From Mobula birostris (Eukaryota), in the NCBI RefSeq assembly GCF_030028105.1, contig NC_092392.1, positions 18,058,613 through 18,122,612 on the forward strand: a stretch of 64,000 bases of DNA, read 5' to 3'. Positions 5,319 through 51,031 of the stretch are shown piece by piece. The translations under genes were made by a program, and so were the position numbers. The notes under the pieces were generated by a model. That model was not told where the DNA came from. It worked only from the letters and a program-made list of their open reading frames with translations, and made no database searches. Each line of letters starts with the position of its first letter. The first letter of the stretch is position 1.

Positions 5319-6990
5319 TATTTAAATAATATTGCTTTTTTAAAATATTATGTTTCCTAACATTATATTCCATCTCCCACTGTTTTCCCCTAGTTTCTTC
5401 ATCTGTGATGCTTGTTTTCCCTATCTTTGTATAGCGGACAGACTTGCATCTACTCATCTGTATATTCCCTAGAACTCACTGCCTATGCACCCACTTGCCA
5501 AGTAAATGAATCCTTTTTATTTCTACTCTCTATTTTCTGTCATATTAAAATACTACCCACAAGACCAAGAACCCTCATCTTGTTCAACGGAGTTTTGTAC
5601 AGTGGCACCTAATTGAACATCTTTTGGAAATCAAATGCATTAAATCTACTACTAGTTCTTCTTTCTCCTTCCTGCTGAGGACAGTCTCAAAGCATTTAAA
5701 TAAATCAAATTTCACACGTAAGTCCAAGCTACCTTAATGCAAAGGTTAAGAATGAATGTATCAGAGAGGTCAAGCAGCCCCAATAATCAAAATTAGGGTA
5801 TTTCACTGAATTTTTATTCATAATATTGATTATGAAGGTGGAATTAACAGAATATTTTGTATATTAATATTGAGGCAAAAAGCAAGATAGCTTTCCAACT
5901 TCATATATTTCAGCCAGAATAGGAAAATATTTCAAAATTATCTGGTAATGAAAGTGAGAATTGGTATCTGAAGTACACACCAGATATACTTCATTGGCTG
6001 CAAGAGAGCTTTGTAAGTTCAAAAAGTATTGAATTAAACATGTTATTTCTTTGCATGTGGCTGCAGAAACCAGTTATACGTTTGAAGTTACAGATAACAA
6101 AATCAAACAGTCAGAAGATTAAATGTAGTTTTAAAAAAAATATTACAAAGAAGGTAAAATTATTAGCAAGAAGAGAAAAGTTAATAAGCAACAGCTCCTT
6201 TAATTCCAAATAATCTTTTCTCCCTTGCTTCTACAAGGTGGTAACAACTATAGATGTCCATGGGAGTTTAAGCTTGTCACCATAATAGGCTGTGTCTTGA
6301 TTCATTTGGATTCCAAGCTGTATTTAAAATAAATTCCTTTCTGCACTTTCTTTCTATGCTTTTCGATCAGCAAGTTTACATTATGATTGTTGAAAAGCTG
6401 TCATTCACAACTCTATCTCTGCATGATGAATGGATTGCATGTGGTTGTTTAAAGGCCAATAAATCTTTGTACAAAGACTGGAGCATTGAGAAAAGCTCGG
6501 GAGTTCCCCAGCCTTGTTTCCACTTCTATCGCTACAAATATGGCTTTTCATAGCAGGTTTTAAATCCAAAGATTTACTATTAGAATATCAAAAATATGTA
6601 TCTGTCATGCAAAATATTTGTCATTGAAATAGTGCAATCAGCAGATGAAAAATTAGATTTCTGCCAATTGTGAGCATAAGTATGAGAAAGTAAGTGTGCA
6701 AACACGAGGGACATCGAGAAGCATGGAATTCACTTTTAAAAAAGTAGATGCTCTAATGTTTCTTTGAAAGCTTGTATTAATCATTGTTATTGATGTATAA
6801 CGTCTATCATAATAAATTCCAGATGTATGGTATAAAAGGACTAAATTCAAAATGAGGGTTGATCTATAGCATTTGGTTAAATTCTGCAATTGTTGGTACT
6901 CAGTGAGCCTCATTGCAAAATTAAGTACAATGAGAACACATTTAAAGCTTTAGACCTTTTTCAAGAAAAAATATTGCCCTGACATATCAT

Positions 6991-7719
6991 GCAACACACA
7001 TCAAAGTTGCTGGTGAACGCAGCAGGCCAGGCACCATCTCTAGGAAGAGGTACAGACGACGTTTTGGTCCGAGACCCTTCGTCAGGACTAACTGAAGGAA
7101 GAGGAGTAACTGGAGGCTACCCAGACGGAATATAAGGTGTTGTTCCTCCAACCTGAGTGTGGCTTCATCTTTACAGTAGAGGAGGCCGTGGATAGACATA
7201 TCAGAATGGGAATGGGATGTGGAATTAAAATGTGTGGCTACTGGGAGATCCTGCTGGCATGAACATTGACTTCTCAAACTTCCGCTAATGCCCCACCTCC
7301 CCCTCGTACCCTATCCATTATTTATTTATATACACACATTCTTTCTCTCTCTTTCCTTTTTCTCCCTCTGTCCCTCTGACTATACCCCTTGCCCATCCTC
7401 TGGGTTCCCCCCGCTTTCCCTTGTCCCTGGGTCTCCTGTCCCATGATCCTCTCATATCCCTTTTGCCAATCAACTGTCCAGCCCTTGGCTCCATCCCTCC
7501 CCCTCCCGTCTTCTCCTATCATTTTGGATCCCCTCCTCCCCTCTTACTTTCAAATCTCTTACTAGCTCTTCCTTCAGTTAGTCCTGACGAAGGGTCTCAG
7601 CTCGAAACGTCGACTGTACCTCTTCCTAGAGATGCTGCCTGGCCTGCTGCGTTCACCAGCAACTTTTATGTGTCTTGCTTGAATTTCCAGCATCTGCAGA
7701 ATTCCTCATGTTTGCGTGT
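6991..7719 (+). mobile_element. Penelope insertion with 5' inversion and ~113-bp inverted termini, perfect 13-bp TSD
   Basis: TSD cctgacatatcat at 6978-6990 and 7720-7732. The GIY-YIG C-terminus (LEEQHLIFRLGSLQ) is on minus at about 7104-7255, and its continuation (GMNIDFSNFR*) plus 3'UTR is on plus from about 7256. Confidence 0.9.
7580..7615 (+). ncRNA. Minimal type I hammerhead ribozyme motif (Penelope-associated)
   Basis: agtc-CTGACGA-agggtctcagctc-GAAAC-GTC-gact. Stem I is agtc/gact, stem II is GGG/CTC, stem III is the loopless palindrome ACGT, and the cleavage triplet is GUC. Confidence 0.75.
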
Positions 7720-31495: not shown

Positions 31496-31817
31496 TTGTA
31501 GTCAAGCTAACTTGTGAGAAAATAACTAAGGTTTTCAAAGAGGGGCAAGATCAATATCAACTCCGAAAGAGGGGGATTATTGATAATACGTTCTGTCCTG
31601 GAGGCTACATCCAGAGGTAAAATGATGATACTGAATGCTGGGTTGCTTGTTAAGATTCAGTATTGTCTGTTGTATACAGTGGTGCTATAACATTTGTGAA
31701 TCCGTCGAATTTTCTCTATTTCTGCATAAGTATGACCTAAAATGTGATCAGATCTTCATGTAAGTCTTAAATCTTGATAAAGAGAACCCAATTAAATAAA
31801 TAACACAAACAATCATT

Positions 31818-31838
31818 CTGCAGAATTCCTGTTGTTTG
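31818..31838 (+). mobile_element. 21-bp Penelope 3'-terminal micro-insertion in the Tc1 left TIR
   Basis: ctgcagaattcctgttgtttg matches the Penelope terminus (compare 7694-7714). Perfect 12-bp TSD caaacaatcatt at 31806-31817 and 31839-31850. Confidence 0.8.
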
Positions 31839-32088
31839 CAAACAATCATTATACATGTTCATTTATTTATTGAGAAAAATGATCCAATATTACGGGAATT
31901 TGTTGGAAAAGTATGCAATCCTCTGGGGTAGTGCCTTCTACAAAAGCTATTTGGAGTCAGGCGTTCAAACCAATGAGATGAGATTGGGGTTATGGGTTGC
32001 AGAGGTGACCTGCCCTATAAAAAAGACACACAAAGTCAGGTTACTGACACAGCCTGCTCTTCTCAAGAAAGATCCGTTTACGTGCACC

Positions 32089-32821
32089 ATGCCTCGATCA
32101 AAACAACTTTCAGAAGACGTTAGAAGAAGAATTTTAGAGTTGTATGAAGCTGGAAAAGGCTACAACAGCATTTCTAAAGACCCGAGTGTTCATCTGTCCA
32201 CAGTGACAGAAATTGTCTCCAAATGGAAGAAACTCAGTACTGTTGCTATTCCCCATTGGAGTGGGCATCCTGCAAAGATTATACCAAGAGCTCAATGTGC
32301 AGTGCTGAAGGAGGTAAAAAGGAACCCAAGGGTAACAGCAAAAGACTTTCAAGAATCTCTAAAACTTGCTAAAGTCTCTGTTCATGTGTCCACTATAAGA
32401 AAAACACTGAACAAGAGTGGTGTTCACGGAAGGACACCACGGAGGAAACCACCGCTCTTCAAAAAGAAAAACATTGCTGCACATCTCAGGTTTGCATAAG
32501 ACCACCTGGATGTTCTACAATGCTCTGGGACAATGTTCAGTAGACAGGTGAGACAAAAGTTGAACTTTTTGCCAGAAATGCAGAGGTTTCCAGCATCTGC
32601 AAATTTTCTCTTATTCCTGATCTTAATCCTACAGAATTGTTGTAGAAGGACCTGAAGCAAGCAGTTCATGCAAGGAAACCCACCAACATCCCAGAGTTGA
32701 AGCAGTTCTATAAGGAGGAATGGCCTAAAATTCCTCCAAGCCGATGTTCAAGACTGATTAACAGTTACCGGAATATTTGGTTGAAGTTATTGCTGTGCAA
32801 GAGGGTCACACCAGTCACTGA
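32089..32821 (+). pseudogene. Tc1 transposase pseudogene
   Basis: MPRSKQLSEDVRRRI...GKGY..IS (paired-like HTH), a GRP-like motif (SGHP), ETKVELF and PDLNP. It has stops, and the middle of the DDE domain is deleted. Confidence 0.88.
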
Positions 32822-44171: not shown

Positions 44172-44359
44172 CACAAACAAGAGAAAATCTGCAGATACTG
44201 GAAACCCGAGCAACACACACAAAATGCTGGAGGAAGTCAGCAGGCCAGGCAGCATCTAGGAAAAGAGTACTGTCGACGTTTCAGGCTGAAATGTTGACTG
44301 CACGCTTTTCCTAGATGCTGCCTGGCCTGCTGAGTTCCTCCAGCATTTTGTGTGTGTAG
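44172..44359. mobile_element. 188-bp palindromic mini-Penelope
   Basis: Near-perfect ~70-bp inverted arms centred at about 44284. Perfect 14-bp TSD atcaaggatccaat at 44158-44171 and 44360-44373. Confidence 0.88.
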
Positions 44360-45476
44360 ATCAAGGATCCAATTGCACTAGATGGTATTAAGACCAAGGT
44401 GCTGAAGCTTATTGATTAGTTTTGAGGGGATGATGGTATTGAAAGCAGAGCTGTAGTCGATGAAGAGCATCCAGATGCATGCACTTTTGCTGTCCAGATG
44501 TTCCAGTGAGTGGGGAGGCAATGAGATGGAATCTGCTGTGGGCCTCTTGTCCCAGTAGGTATACTGAAGTTGCTTCTAGGCAGGAGTTGATATGTTTCAT
44601 TATCAACCTTTCAAAGCACATCATTACCCTGGATGTAAGTGCTATTGGACAATAATCATTGAGGCAGGGTACCATGTTCTCCTTAGGCACCGGTATAAGT
44701 GAAGGTTGTCCCCTTGCCTCTTGAGTCTGATGTCGGCCTCCCAGACAAGATCACAGAGTCACCAGGTGCTATAGGTACGTTCGGTTTGAGATTTAGGCAC
44801 TTGGAGACAGAATCAAGAAATGTTGGCAGTTTTATCAGACAGATCCTTTACACTTGCAATAAAGCACAAGACACTGCCAACAATTTTAGCTCCTAAATCA
44901 GGGAAACACATTGTGGCAACATCAAAGGTATGAAAATAGCAATCTTTCTATTGTAGTTGGGCCTTTTTGTCAAGTGCAGAATGTTCTGTTGCTGCTACTG
45001 CATAGAAATTTTCACTTTGGCAGTAACAATATGATCTACATGTTAAATATTGTCAATAAAAACTCAGAAATTGTCTCTGAAATTGTGGCAAACACCAGAA
45101 GGACCCAATCTTATAAAGAATCCACAAAGCATCAGAATTGCATCAGTGTCTCGATCGGAAATCTTTTCCCAATCATTGCAGCGAGTTAGAATATGAACAG
45201 GGAAAGATCAAATAGTCACTCAGCAATAATATCAACTACTCTGACAGAAAAGTTTTTGGTTAAAACACAAGAGTTATCAGCATGAATGCAAGTGGAAGAA
45301 GCTTTATATACAGGCCCTGTTTAGTTGTTGATTAGACCATCAAAAAAAGCCTTTGCCTTCTTGAGAGCCAACTTTCACAGTGCAGACAAGCAGACTACAA
45401 TGAAAAAGGAAATGATTTTTTTCTGGTAATCATCAATAGCTGTTAGCAATTATTATGAACAGAATGGTATCAAACA

Positions 45477-47560: not shown

Positions 47561-48640
47561 GAATGTGCTTCTCTCTCTGCACAGTGCTGTTGACGCACTG
47601 AGTATTCCTTGCATTTACTGATTGTATGCACTATTTAAGGACTTAGTTCTACCTCAGTATACGAGGATTCATTTCCTTCCCCCACCATGAGAAAGTCCAG
47701 TAAAATGATGAAAAGGTGTATTACGTAATAATTTTAGTAGAATTTCTCTCAGTAAAGGGTTCAATGGAAAACCCTGGCAGGGAGTAGTATGTCATTAAGA
47801 GTGTCTCCACATTTAATTATCCATATGCAGACTTCATTAGTTGATAACAGTTTCACAGGGTAATAAATGTCTTGGCTGTGCAATTATTTCAAATTCAAAA
47901 TTTCAGCCATTTAAACTACTGCTCACTTATTTCAGCAGAAGTAACTTTAAGAACTTGGCAGTTCTTTTAAGAGTTTGCCCTGCAAGCAGAAATCCTCTGT
48001 TGCTTTAATAAGCACAGGATTTATACTTCTGTGCAGTCATATCTAAACAGTGAAAATCTACTGCATATCTCTCCTGATGTCTATGTCCATGGACCTTAAT
48101 TTCTACGATACAGCAGTGACCACTCTTAAAACTACTTCTTGGAAAAGTATTGTGATGTCCTGAAATTATCATAAAAGGTACATCATCAATTCAAGCCTAG
48201 ATTCAAATACAGAAAGATTACTCACACTATTAAAGCTGGTTCTGATAGCTGAGCAATCTTATTGGAATAATCTTAATGTTTGTTTTAGCACTGCAATGAA
48301 GAAGCTGATGATTTAAAATCTCACTGGATCAAGGATGCAATTATTTCTTTGGACCGCTGGTAGACTCAGAGCCTTAATATATTTATCTAGCCTTACATTT
48401 AATCCTGCCAAAATATTTGAGAGCTAACAGAAGGACTTTTTAATCATTACTCCTTCCATATTCTCAAGATCAATAAATGTTCAAGCAGTGCAGGAGAAGC
48501 TTAGGGCCCTGGTTCGCCAATTCTTCACACAAATCCTGACCATCAGAAGGAACAAGCATTTAAACATTAACAATGAAACTACAAATACTGGTATTATTTA
48601 ATAAACCAGACAATATTTAGGGGTGTCCTCGGATGCTTCT

Positions 48641-50183
48641 TGTTATGCTTTGTAACTCCAGAACATAAAAAAATTCAAAGAAAACATGGAGCCGGGAATA
48701 ATGTATCTAAATTTCTCAATTTTTTACTTCATGCAAGGTGCGCATATATGGTGTGGTGGCATGATGATGTACGCCATTCACACACTTTTCCATATACTCA
48801 TAATCAATCATTTTAATAACAGATAATACTCAATCAAACAACATACCCACAATATTACTCAAGTATTACTGATAGATTAAATACACAACATCCCTCCCTG
48901 CTTATATATACTGTACAATACAACAACTATACAGACAGCCACAGCATGGTAAATATTAAATTGTGCCATTCAGGCCTAAAGATTAATCGCTACTGAGGAT
49001 TTCTTACTCTTGTGAGAAAACGTCTTTCCTAACAAGAGAGGTCACTCTAACAATCTCAGGTCTGGGCCTCCTCCCTGATGGTTGTAGGAGTTCCCTCTGA
49101 AACTGCAGGAAGGGGTTCTGACAGCTCTGGACCCCTTTCTTCCCCTTTGCTCGGCTTTTCTCTCTTGATGTACTTGATCCTTGCTTTCCTTACAGTCCTG
49201 ATCTTTATTCTCACATTCCTTCTCTCTTTCACACTCCTTTTCAACTTCCTGTCTTTCTTTTCCTCACCTTCCTTTTTCTTCTAGTTTTCTATATCTCTGA
49301 ATTTGCTGATTTCTCAAGAAATTAGGTCTCATTTATCCTCTTCCATTTCCACAGTATTTATATCCTCCTCCTCTTTCTTTTCCTTTTTCTTCTTTCTAGG
49401 ATGTGCATCTTGATCTTGGGAAGGTGCATTTAGATCACCGGAGTATTCCCTTATTAATCCTTCTATCGCTCCCTTTACGATCTGATTTCTCTTCTTGGTT
49501 TCCTCATCCACACTATCATCTGATGAATCTCTGTTTTTGTATCTCCATTGACTCTTTTCTTTTTAGCCTTCCATTTATCCAGCTGGGCTTCGGTCTCTAT
49601 GTTTACTTTAACAAACAGCTTTTTGTCTCCCACTTGAAGTTCATGCAATAGCCTTAAGGCATTAGAGTGGATTCTGGTTTGTTGTAGTCACTAAAGCCGA
49701 ATGCTTGCAACTTTCCTGAAACTCCTTGAACTCTCTTCAGTTTAAAGCCAAGCCACATTACACAAGTAACTGCCTGATCAACATTATCTGCAGCCTTCTC
49801 AAATATATTGCCTACAAAAACTGTTGTAGTTGGCCCAAGGCTTTCATCTCTTTCATGGTTCCTCTGAGCAGCATGGTCCTTCCTTGGCCCAGTATGCTTT
49901 CCAACCAGAGGCACAGAGGTTGGCACAAACATCTGTTTACCCCCTGTTGGGCAATGGCTCATGGTGTACAGCACGGAGACAGTTGTAACTCCGAAATATA
50001 ATAACTAATTCAAAGTAAGGGAGCCAGGAACAATGTATCTTAGTTTTGCTTTTATACTTTAAGTGAGTCACGCACATATGATGTGGTGGTATGATGACGT
50101 ATGCCACTTAAACTAAGAATACTCAATCAAACAACACACCCACAATATTGCTCAAATATTACTGGTATGTTACATAATCAACA
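48641..50183 (-). mobile_element. Gypsy LTR element whose interior is replaced by an RBM25 cDNA (LTR-RBM25-integrase tail-PPT-LTR)
   Basis: LTRs at 48641-48890 and about 49983-50183, same family as 29887-30121. PPT agcagggaggga on minus abuts 48890; integrase C-terminal remnant at about 48960-49145; flanks cttct / ctcct (4/5). Confidence 0.8.
49146..49975 (-). pseudogene. RBM25: Processed (intronless) RBM25 pseudogene fragment: RRM through start of the RE/RD region
   Basis: VGKH...GPTTTVFVGNI.EKA, KRVQG.SGKLQAFGF, DEETK.R.Q..KGAIE.LIREYS..LNAPSQ...HPRKKKKEKK, EDIN..EMEEDK. It has stops and frameshifts, no introns and no poly(A). Confidence 0.92.
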
Positions 50184-50898
50184 CTCCTGAATGCTGATGC
50201 TTGGGTGGATCAAGTCAACTTGCTCCTCTGTACTATCATGTGATGAGGTTTCAAGTTGGTCACATGATTCCCCCCCCCCAATTACCACCTCATCAGACCC
50301 ACGCAGCGCCCCAGTCACTTTTTAAAACAAACTGTTCTGGTGAAATTATTTCCTTACTGAGTGGAAATAAGAACACTAAAATTTAATTACATAAAATCAG
50401 CAGAATTCATAATCCAACAAATTCATTTGTTCAATGAAACCAGATTTCAGAAGCATCAAAATTTTCTTCACACGAAATAAAACTCCTAATTAAACCTATT
50501 TATCTTCCAAAGTGCTTTAATTCACATCAGTGTTCAAAACATAACTTGCTGCAAGTTGATGCTGTCTCAAATTATCAATACTGTTTATGATGTAAACACT
50601 GATTCCACCTTTCACAAACCATCCCTCTCATTCTACTGGGTCAGTGTATTACAAATATAATGTTATGTCTACAATTAAATTTTATATAAGCTCTTCTTTA
50701 ACTTGAAAGAAATTATGAATTTTTGGCTCATTATGGAAAAAACAAGATAGCACATTTGCCAACCAGTGCCAACATTGTGCTTCCATATGGAATACAACAA
50801 AGGTTACACACAGAATGAATTCACTTCCATCATTTCCTCAGTTAAACGCTTCAAATGGAATTTCAGAACAGTACCCTGACAGATCTGGAGTAGGATTT

Positions 50899-51031
50899 CT
50901 ATTTCTAAGAACATTTATCTTGGACCACTTATTTCTTGGACCACTTATTGGACCACTTATTTATCTTAGACCACTTGGACCACTTATTTATCTTGGACCA
51001 CTTATTTCTAAGAACATTTATCTTGGACCAC
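50899..51031. repeat. Short irregular tandem repeat (core ttggaccacttattt) bounded by a 28-bp direct repeat
   Basis: About 6 copies of ggaccac; atttctaagaacatttatcttggaccac at 50901 and 51004. Confidence 0.85.

What the first reader, a model, noticed from the sequence alone, without database searches (positions are those of the whole stretch)
48636..50188. Host RBM25 mRNA fragment captured between two Gypsy LTRs (candidate LTR-mediated retroposition)
Seen, on the minus strand: 5' LTR (50183-~49983), ~830 bp of spliced RBM25 coding sequence, Gypsy integrase C-terminal remnant, polypurine tract, 3' LTR (48890-48641). The flanks are cttct / ctcct, a 5-bp TSD with one mismatch. The RBM25 piece is in the same orientation as the element, truncated at both ends, has no poly(A) or TSD of its own, and joins Gypsy sequence in a purine-rich GAAGAAAG context. 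Established: LINE-made processed pseudogenes usually keep the 3' end, poly(A) and TSDs, whereas RT template switching yields internal fragments flanked by LTR sequence. Inference: this is gene capture by template switching. Caveat: the PBS and the last ~9 nt of the 5' LTR are missing, so a secondary deletion or an insertion-with-deletion is an alternative.
Basis: partly seen in the sequence, partly recalled or inferred. Interest (0 to 1): 0.78.

Follow-up and report, generated by a model that had tools for sequence, protein, structure and literature searches.

The report
Dead RBM25 retrocopy inside Gypsy retrotransposon
A broken, intron-free piece of the splicing-factor gene RBM25 sits between the two end-repeats of an old jumping gene, most likely copied there by that element's own reverse transcriptase, which is a known route of gene copying and here left only a dead fossil.

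Summary
The anatomy is real. On the minus strand: 5' LTR (50183-49983, last 9 nt missing), a 50-nt spacer, spliced RBM25 coding sequence (49932 to ~49195, probably ~49150; 4 stops, 5 frameshifts), a Gypsy integrase-end remnant, a PPT and a 3' LTR (48890-48641), with a 4/5 TSD. A third LTR of the family, next to RNase H and integrase remnants, shows that it is Gypsy-type. Retrocopy decay (~0.11) matches half the LTR-LTR distance (0.117), which fits co-insertion.

Three things complicate the simple story. The 5' LTR has far more private changes than the 3' LTR (24 vs 9, p=0.014), so the pair may not be sisters. The spacer is not demonstrably RBM25, and its first 16 nt weakly resemble a CR1 LINE tail. 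Junction microhomology could not be tested.

Best reading (0.6): LTR-mediated retroposition by template switching, with an aberrant or later-deleted 5' junction. Tan et al. 2016 (PMC5131818) described this route from flies to humans, including Gypsy cases in zebrafish. This is a new, dead example, probably from a cartilaginous fish (host inferred from recalled repeats), lying downstream of two CACNA2D1 exons.

The parts
50184..50188 (-). Upstream copy of the putative 5-bp target-site duplication
   Evidence: 4 of 5 match to 48636-48640; LR about 41; a decayed-PPT reading of this flank is not supported (LR 0.3-3.4 over 10-20 nt, far below 1 at 30-40 nt)
49983..50183 (-). 5' LTR, 201 nt; last 9 nt missing, 37-nt internal deletion, no PBS after it
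   Evidence: pairwise and three-way alignments
49933..49982 (-). 50-nt spacer of uncertain origin. Its first 16 nt (49982-49967) weakly resemble the 3' tail of the window's CR1-type LINEs. It ends in CAG exactly where RBM25 homology starts.
   Evidence: PWM rank 5 of 127,968, best non-training site; held-out scores comparable; but nhmmer E=39 and look-elsewhere 0.05 to >1; RBM25 upstream profile p=0.12
49195..49932 (-). Spliced RBM25 coding fragment (linker, RRM, start of the Arg/Glu-rich region); stops at 49760, 49331, 49316, 49266; frameshifts near 49785, 49739, 49662, 49531, 49292
49150..49194 (-). Probable continuation of the RBM25 Arg/Glu/Asp-rich repeat; the 3' junction lies at about 49150-49135
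   Evidence: codon pattern in frame, with Cys/Gln/His codons at Arg-like positions; purine profile; inference
48904..49149 (-). Gypsy 3' internal remnant: Pro/Glu/Ser/Thr-rich integrase tail, terminal RRYPxRxRxPPxRL-like motif at 49025-48984 (broken by stops), short 3' UTR
   Evidence: motif profile from 4 of 8 named relatives
48891..48903 (-). Polypurine tract
   Evidence: sequence directly
48641..48890 (-). 3' LTR, 250 nt, complete, TG...CA
48636..48640 (-). Downstream copy of the putative target-site duplication

Best explanation
This is a dead LTR-mediated retrocopy. A spliced RBM25 mRNA was co-packaged in the particle of a Gypsy-type LTR retrotransposon. Minus-strand synthesis copied the element's 3' end (LTR, PPT, last ~250 nt of the integrase region), switched onto the purine-rich Arg/Glu-coding part of the RBM25 mRNA and copied about 780 nt of it. 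The product was integrated with a 5-bp TSD downstream of two CACNA2D1 exons and then decayed neutrally. The 5' junction is not a textbook switch-back: either the return to LTR sequence landed inside U5 (an aberrant last transfer, losing the PBS), or a later deletion, possibly after a CR1 insertion, removed the U5 end, PBS and leader. Without a PBS it cannot be copied again. Shown: the parts, their order and strand, the spliced state, the decay. Inferred: co-packaging, the switch, and the cause of the 5' junction.
For: The fragment is internal, truncated at both ends, sense-oriented and has no poly(A); it replaces the element's internal region rather than interrupting it. These are the features Tan et al. 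list (PMC5131818). The family is Gypsy-type: a third LTR (30121-29887) is followed by RT_RNaseH (E 8e-15) and then integrase-zinc-finger remnants, with named relatives annotated as Gypsy or K02A2.6-like Pol. Age concordance: 12 of 121 non-degenerate sites at conserved RBM25 codons are changed (p 0.099, CI 0.05-0.17, K2P 0.109), against half the LTR-LTR distance, 0.117. TSD LR about 41. The 5' and 3' LTRs are the closest of the three pairs (K2P 0.233 vs 0.288 and 0.35). Junction spacers of 44-83 nt and LTR-portion flanks occur in published LTR-mediated retrocopies (Suppl. Table 8; negative values read as inserted bases by comparison with the main-text example).
Against: Sister LTRs should decay equally, but private substitutions are 24 (5') vs 9 (3'), p=0.014; 17 vs 5 and 13 vs 4 after dropping gap-adjacent columns; non-CpG 19 vs 3, p=0.0009 (one outgroup only, and the CpG split was chosen after seeing the data). 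The grouping of the pair against the third LTR is itself not significant (33 vs 24 sites, p=0.29). The excess is spread over the whole LTR, with no significant mosaic pattern. The PBS and U5 end are absent. The spacer's weak likeness to a CR1 tail points to LINE involvement, and Tan's table lists 6 of 21 chicken retrocopies as CR1-flanked, both-end-truncated and non-LTR. Microhomology is untested. The RBM25 age is an upper bound, since no host-lineage RBM25 was among the 118 named homologs used.
Confidence: 0.6

Rival explanations
1. A LINE (CR1-type) reverse transcriptase, or RNA-templated break repair, inserted the RBM25 cDNA into a Gypsy element already in place, deleting several kb of target from U5 to the integrase end. 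The CR1-tail-like bases at the 5' junction would be a jump onto a CR1 RNA end.
For: PBS and U5 end are lost. The first 16 nt of the spacer are the best non-training match to the window's LINE-tail matrix. The window is rich in LINE RT remnants. CR1-flanked retrocopies without poly(A) or TSD are listed in chicken. Vertebrate retrocopy counts track non-LTR content (10.64898/2026.06.26.734816, passages).
Against: It needs a chance hit on a Gypsy copy, in sense orientation, plus a multi-kb deletion. The retrocopy is not younger than the LTR pair. The tail match is not significant with a full-tail profile (E=39). Several non-L1 LINEs are thought to need their own 3' end on the template (PMC3747384, passages). 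It does not explain the LTR asymmetry either.
Confidence: 0.2
2. The Gypsy RT made the RBM25-integrase-PPT-LTR cDNA, but the two LTRs are not sisters. Either the cDNA recombined into an older solo LTR (keeping that LTR's TSD), or the 3' LTR was later replaced by conversion, or the template was a read-through transcript from another LTR copy spliced onto an RBM25 exon.
For: LTR rate asymmetry. No PBS, as expected after a solo or 3' LTR. The spacer ends in CAG exactly at the start of RBM25 homology, which is an exon start by recall (not from a call). Ty1 retrosequences and Tf cDNA recombination are described in yeast (PMC7175516, passages and reference titles).
Against: The read-through version predicts excess divergence only in R-U5, but the excess also appears in the first 73 nt (7 vs 1). 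RBM25 non-CpG decay (8 of 99) is nearer the 5' LTR branch (19-23 of 169) than the 3' LTR branch (3-7 of 169), although the cDNA model ties it to the 3' LTR; the tests are not decisive (p 0.02-0.53). There is no mosaic signal (permutation p 0.15-0.58).
Confidence: 0.16
3. Chance juxtaposition or an assembly chimera: two unrelated LTRs and an unrelated pseudogene happen to lie together.
For: The TSD has a mismatch, and the integrase remnant is supported only by a short motif.
Against: Seven parts lie in the right order and strand within 1.55 kb; the TSD has a 1.7% chance match; the motif sits where expected (5 of 5000 shuffles); the window has no N.
Confidence: 0.04

Closest known systems
LTR-mediated retrocopies of Tan et al. 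2016 (PMC5131818): Drosophila BLASTOPIA/MAX chimeras; zebrafish Gypsy164-LTR, Gypsy35-LTR and Gypsy-115/97 cases; mouse IAPEy/MERVL; human HERV-K14-FAM8A1
   Same: Partial spliced mRNA truncated at both ends, replacing internal LTR-element sequence, no poly(A) or own TSD, both LTRs present, sense orientation, loss-of-function decay in older copies.
   Different: Here the 5' junction lies in U5 with no PBS (the paper's main text has no mention of 'PBS' or 'primer binding'); microsimilarity is untested; the LTRs are unevenly diverged; there is no evidence of further copies or expression; the host is probably a cartilaginous fish, which that survey did not include ('shark' 0 occurrences).
Maize Bs1, rice LTR-internal retrocopies and yeast Ty1 retrosequences (as cited in PMC5131818 and PMC7175516; originals not read)
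   Same: Cellular mRNA pieces carried between or fused to LTR-element sequence.
   Different: Bs1 is multi-copy and coding; this copy is PBS-less and dead.
CR1-flanked chicken retrocopies classed non-LTR (PMC5131818 Suppl. Table 8)
   Same: Both-end truncation, no poly(A) or TSD listed, CR1 sequence at the 5' side (5 of the 6 rows).
   Different: Here the CR1-like match is only 16 nt and not significant by profile search, and the copy lies inside an LTR element.
Gypsy/Ty3 'K02A2.6-like' LTR retrotransposons (named relatives from Labeo rohita, Xenopus tropicalis, Mytilus edulis, Haliotis rubra)
   Same: RNase H then integrase order, P/E/S/T-rich integrase tail ending in an RRYPxRxR-type motif, PPT, short TG...CA LTR, 5-bp TSD.
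   Different: gag, protease, RT, RNase H and nearly all of the integrase are absent from this copy.

Membership tests
LTR-mediated retrocopy (Tan et al. 2016) | Intron-less, partial mRNA copy truncated at both ends | tested here: met
   contiguous across isoform-indel positions at 49763/60, 49707/05, 49370/67 and 49290; covers about residues 77-337 of an 836-aa gar protein
LTR-mediated retrocopy (Tan et al. 2016) | Flanked on both sides by one LTR family, with internal sequence replaced rather than interrupted | tested here: met
   U5 on one side, integrase end on the other
LTR-mediated retrocopy (Tan et al. 2016) | No poly(A) tail or own TSD | tested here: met
   no A run over 5 nt in the internal region; no duplication seen around the insert in self-BLAST, though decay could hide a short one
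LTR-mediated retrocopy (Tan et al. 2016) | Microsimilarity between mRNA and element at the switch points | not testable with these tools
   no host RBM25 mRNA or intact family copy available; the 3' junction is in purine-rich sequence; the 5' junction has a 50-nt spacer
LTR-mediated retrocopy (Tan et al. 2016) | Retrocopy and LTRs inserted together (same age; sister LTRs) | tested here: inconclusive
   mean age fits (0.109 vs 0.117) but LTR branches are unequal (24 vs 9)
LTR-mediated retrocopy (Tan et al. 2016) | Co-transcription from the LTR and secondary copies | not testable with these tools
   no expression or whole-genome data; no second copy in the 64-kb window; PBS absent
Gypsy/Ty3 LTR retrotransposon | TG...CA LTRs, PPT, 4-6 bp TSD | tested here: met
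   (TSD 4 of 5; 5' LTR end lost)
Gypsy/Ty3 LTR retrotransposon | RNase H before integrase; Gypsy-type relatives | tested here: met
   shown on the sister copy at 30121-~28925, not on this copy
Gypsy/Ty3 LTR retrotransposon | PBS behind the 5' LTR | tested here: not met
   the LTR breaks 9 nt short and is followed by unrelated sequence; this is a defective derivative
L1-type processed pseudogene | Retained 3' end, poly(A), own TSD | tested here: not met
CR1-associated retrocopy | CR1 sequence fused at a junction | tested here: inconclusive
   PWM p 5e-6 per position but chosen post hoc; nhmmer E=39

The most novel reading that the evidence does not exclude
The locus records a capture route not shown for vertebrate Gypsy elements in the papers I saw: a PBS-less chimeric cDNA drawing on three templates (Gypsy 3' end, RBM25 mRNA, a CR1 LINE tail), fixed by recombination into an older solo LTR or by an aberrant last strand transfer. 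That would explain the unequal LTRs, the U5 break and the retained TSD together, and would mean that PBS-less 'LTR-retrocopy-LTR' fossils with mismatched LTR ages form a recognisable class in cartilaginous fish genomes.
Probability: 0.12. Interest if true: 0.55.

Novelty: new member of a known kind. Interest (0 to 1): 0.3.

Why it matters
If right, it extends LTR-mediated retroposition to a lineage that the founding survey did not cover (probably cartilaginous fishes, for which a 2026 preprint counts 14,081 retrocopies and ascribes non-mammalian retroduplication to CR1 or Tx1 LINEs; passages). It suggests counting what share of those copies was made by LTR elements. The locus itself is a dead fragment with nine disabling lesions and no sign of function. 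Its more useful lesson is methodological: a TSD-bounded LTR pair can fail a relative-rate test, so LTR-LTR dating of such chimeras needs outgroup copies.

Tried and rejected
Pfam on five frame pieces of the element gave nothing above a cut-off, and the PDB sequence search with the longest ORF gave 0 hits; identity came from homolog search instead. A word-index search with the sister copy's integrase piece found nothing; the full scan found 2898 hits, and 8 of 30 looked up carried names. tblastn of 5 named Gypsy proteins against the remnant was not significant; 4 of 8 named relatives lack the terminal motif and were left out of the profile. No cartilaginous-fish RBM25 was among the 120 listed of 334 hits; 118 named ones were used.

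Rejected: the upstream flank as a decayed PPT, which would make the 5' LTR another element's 3' LTR; an R-U5-only donor or a mosaic LTR. The spacer as plain RBM25 upstream coding sequence was not supported. The flanks match no other repeat in the window, so the empty site could not be rebuilt. No tRNA or Rfam hit in the window. The 260-nt Gypsy remnant folds no better than shuffles (z -1.29). An exon-like stretch at ~48537-48410 had no Pfam match.

Two searches for a recalled retroviral strand-transfer deletion paper returned 0, so the aberrant-transfer idea rests on recall. No paper linking RBM25 with a Gypsy retrocopy, or LTR-mediated retrocopies with sharks or rays, appeared in the listings (open-access library only; listings, not full texts). 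No paper giving the RBM25 exon map was found. Not checked: the host genome, orthologous loci and other copies, as no eukaryotic DNA collection was open; supplementary file 1 of PMC5131818 was not searchable.

Full report
Setting. The window is AT-rich vertebrate DNA, about 27% self-repetitive, with LINE RT remnants and a Tc1-type transposase piece. Two CACNA2D1 exons lie on the minus strand at 60843-60793 and about 60690-60592 (PDB sequence matches E 3e-4 and 7e-13). No further exon was found by motif scans of the minus strand or by Pfam on 33.6-60.6 kb, so the element, 10.4 kb downstream and in the same orientation, most likely lies in a long intron. I take the host for a cartilaginous fish, probably a ray, from recalled SINE/LINE motifs; no call shows this.

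LTR frame. The two repeats at 50183-49983 and 48890-48641 align along their length (BLAST E 2e-18): 160 of 199 ungapped columns identical, K2P 0.233 +/- 0.04. The 3' copy is complete and preceded by a purine tract. The 5' copy stops 9 nt short and has lost 37 nt internally. The flanking 5-mers match at 4 of 5 (chance 1.7%, LR about 41). I tested whether the upstream flank is instead a decayed PPT: 9 of 15 bases match, but with 4 transversions and no similarity further out, so this is not supported. A third copy at 30121-29887 is followed by RT_RNaseH (E 8e-15) and then Integrase_H2C2 remnants (E 0.0015, below cut-off). Its named relatives are Gypsy or K02A2.6-like Pol proteins (66% identity to a Labeo rohita protein; 8 of 30 looked up had names). 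The family is therefore Gypsy-type.

Insert. The longest ORF finds fish RBM25b (E 4.7e-20). Frameshift-aware alignment to gar, paddlefish and Xenopus RBM25 gives 173/243, 175/247 and 167/268 identities, with 4 stops and 5 frameshifts. Secure homology starts at 49932 and ends near 49195; an Arg/Glu/Asp-like codon pattern runs on to about 49150 (inference). Splicing: among 118 named homologs, isoform indels cluster at positions mapping to 49707/05 (same-species isoform pairs in salmonids and Hyla) and 49370/67 (13 proteins), with single cases at 49763/60 and 49290. The window runs across all of them, with one 1-nt DNA-only step in the whole alignment. That these are exon junctions agrees with my recall of the vertebrate gene; no paper with the exon map was found. 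No RBM25 parent exons lie elsewhere in the window. There is no poly(A).

Gypsy 3' remnant. tblastn with named relatives does not detect it. Four of eight named relatives end in an RRYPxRxRxPPxRL-type motif after a P/E/S/T-rich tail. A profile from these four scores highest, of 127,918 six-frame positions, at 49025 within the expected 260 nt; 5 of 5000 shuffles of that segment reach the score, though whole-window shuffles often do. The assignment is probable by position, not proven by alignment.

Age. At codons conserved across the named homologs, 12 of 121 non-degenerate sites (Arg, Ser, Leu codons, codons next to gaps and residues past 310 left out) have changed: p 0.099, CI 0.05-0.17, K2P 0.109. 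Half the LTR-LTR distance is 0.117. This fits co-insertion, but it is an upper bound and the interval is wide.

Results against the simple reading. (a) With the third LTR as outgroup, the 5' LTR has 24 private changes and the 3' LTR 9 (p=0.014; the same under three MAFFT modes; 17 vs 5 and 13 vs 4 after padding gaps); outside CpG contexts 19 vs 3 (p=0.0009). The excess is spread over the LTR, with no significant mosaic pattern. The pair is still the closest of the three, but not significantly (33 vs 24 sites, p=0.29). With one outgroup this is an anomaly, not a verdict. (b) The 50 nt after the LTR break are not demonstrably RBM25 (349 of 3000 shuffles and 115 of 3000 random window 50-mers score as well). 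Their first 16 nt are the best non-training match to a matrix from five LINE 3'-tail copies in the window (rank 5 of 127,968; 0 of 20,000 shuffles; held-out scores 12.8-16.5 for four copies and -11 for the fifth, against 13-17 for the junction). But the 16-nt span was chosen after I noticed the likeness, a rough look-elsewhere correction gives 0.05 to above 1, and a full-tail profile gives E=39. It is suggestive only. The label CR1 is recalled; two tail copies follow an ORF2-end-like motif. (c) The PBS is absent.

Mechanism. Most likely (0.6) the Gypsy RT switched from the element's integrase end onto co-packaged RBM25 mRNA, in purine-rich sequence where short matches are easy to come by (inferred, untested). 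The 5' junction then arose by a last transfer into U5 or by later deletion. The rivals are LINE- or repair-mediated insertion with deletion into an existing element (0.2); a Gypsy-made cDNA joined to a non-sister LTR by recombination, conversion or read-through splicing (0.16); and chance (0.04).

What is known. Tan et al. 2016 (PMC5131818; I read parts 1-4 of 8 of the text, word-search passages, and parts 5-6 of supplementary file 9) describe this structure in fly, mosquito, zebrafish (5 of 7 diagnosable retrocopies, three with Gypsy flanks), chicken, mouse and human. Their Table S8 also shows junction inserts of 44-83 nt and six CR1-flanked chicken retrocopies classed non-LTR. 'RBM25' was not found in the supplements searched (file 1 not searchable). 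From 10.64898/2026.06.26.734816, PMC3747384 and PMC7175516 I saw passages only. Listings showed no report of this locus or of LTR-mediated retrocopies in sharks or rays; subscription literature was not searched.

Verdict. A real and neatly preserved fossil of a known process, probably in a new host lineage, non-coding and immobile. It works like a Tan-type LTR-mediated retrocopy. Membership is probable but unproven, because microsimilarity is untested and LTR sisterhood is doubtful. Interest 0.3.

Noticed in passing
window 60843-60793 and ~60690-60592, minus strand: Two intact CACNA2D1 (calcium channel alpha-2/delta-1) exons about 100 nt apart; no further exon found in the remaining 60 kb, implying a very long intron.
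   Followed up: partly
window 30121-~28925, minus strand: A second, internally deleted Gypsy copy of the same LTR family (5' LTR, decayed PBS-position sequence, RNase H and integrase remnants), with CR1-like LINE sequence on both sides and its 3' end lost; it also jumps from just after the leader to RNase H.
   Followed up: partly
window 31804-32499, plus strand: 231-aa ORF with Tc1/Sleeping Beauty-type transposase HTH domains (Pfam E 1.5e-14).
   Followed up: no
window 49038-49007: A 32-nt imperfect palindrome over the integrase-end motif; it forms a hairpin in the fold, but the 260-nt region folds no better than shuffles.
   Followed up: partly
window 49370/49367 and 49707/49705: The captured RBM25 isoform lacks the optional residues that several fish and frog homologs carry at these two junctions, so it records the short splice form.
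   Followed up: partly
window 44199-44371 and 6987-7682: Head-to-head inverted repeat pairs (86 nt arms, 1 nt apart; 117 nt arms, 92% complementary, 462 nt apart); the first is made of copies of a short repeat common in the window.
   Followed up: no
window ~50700-50900, minus strand: A short tandem repeat visible in translation as recurring KWSK/ISGPR units, about 0.5 kb upstream of the element.
   Followed up: no
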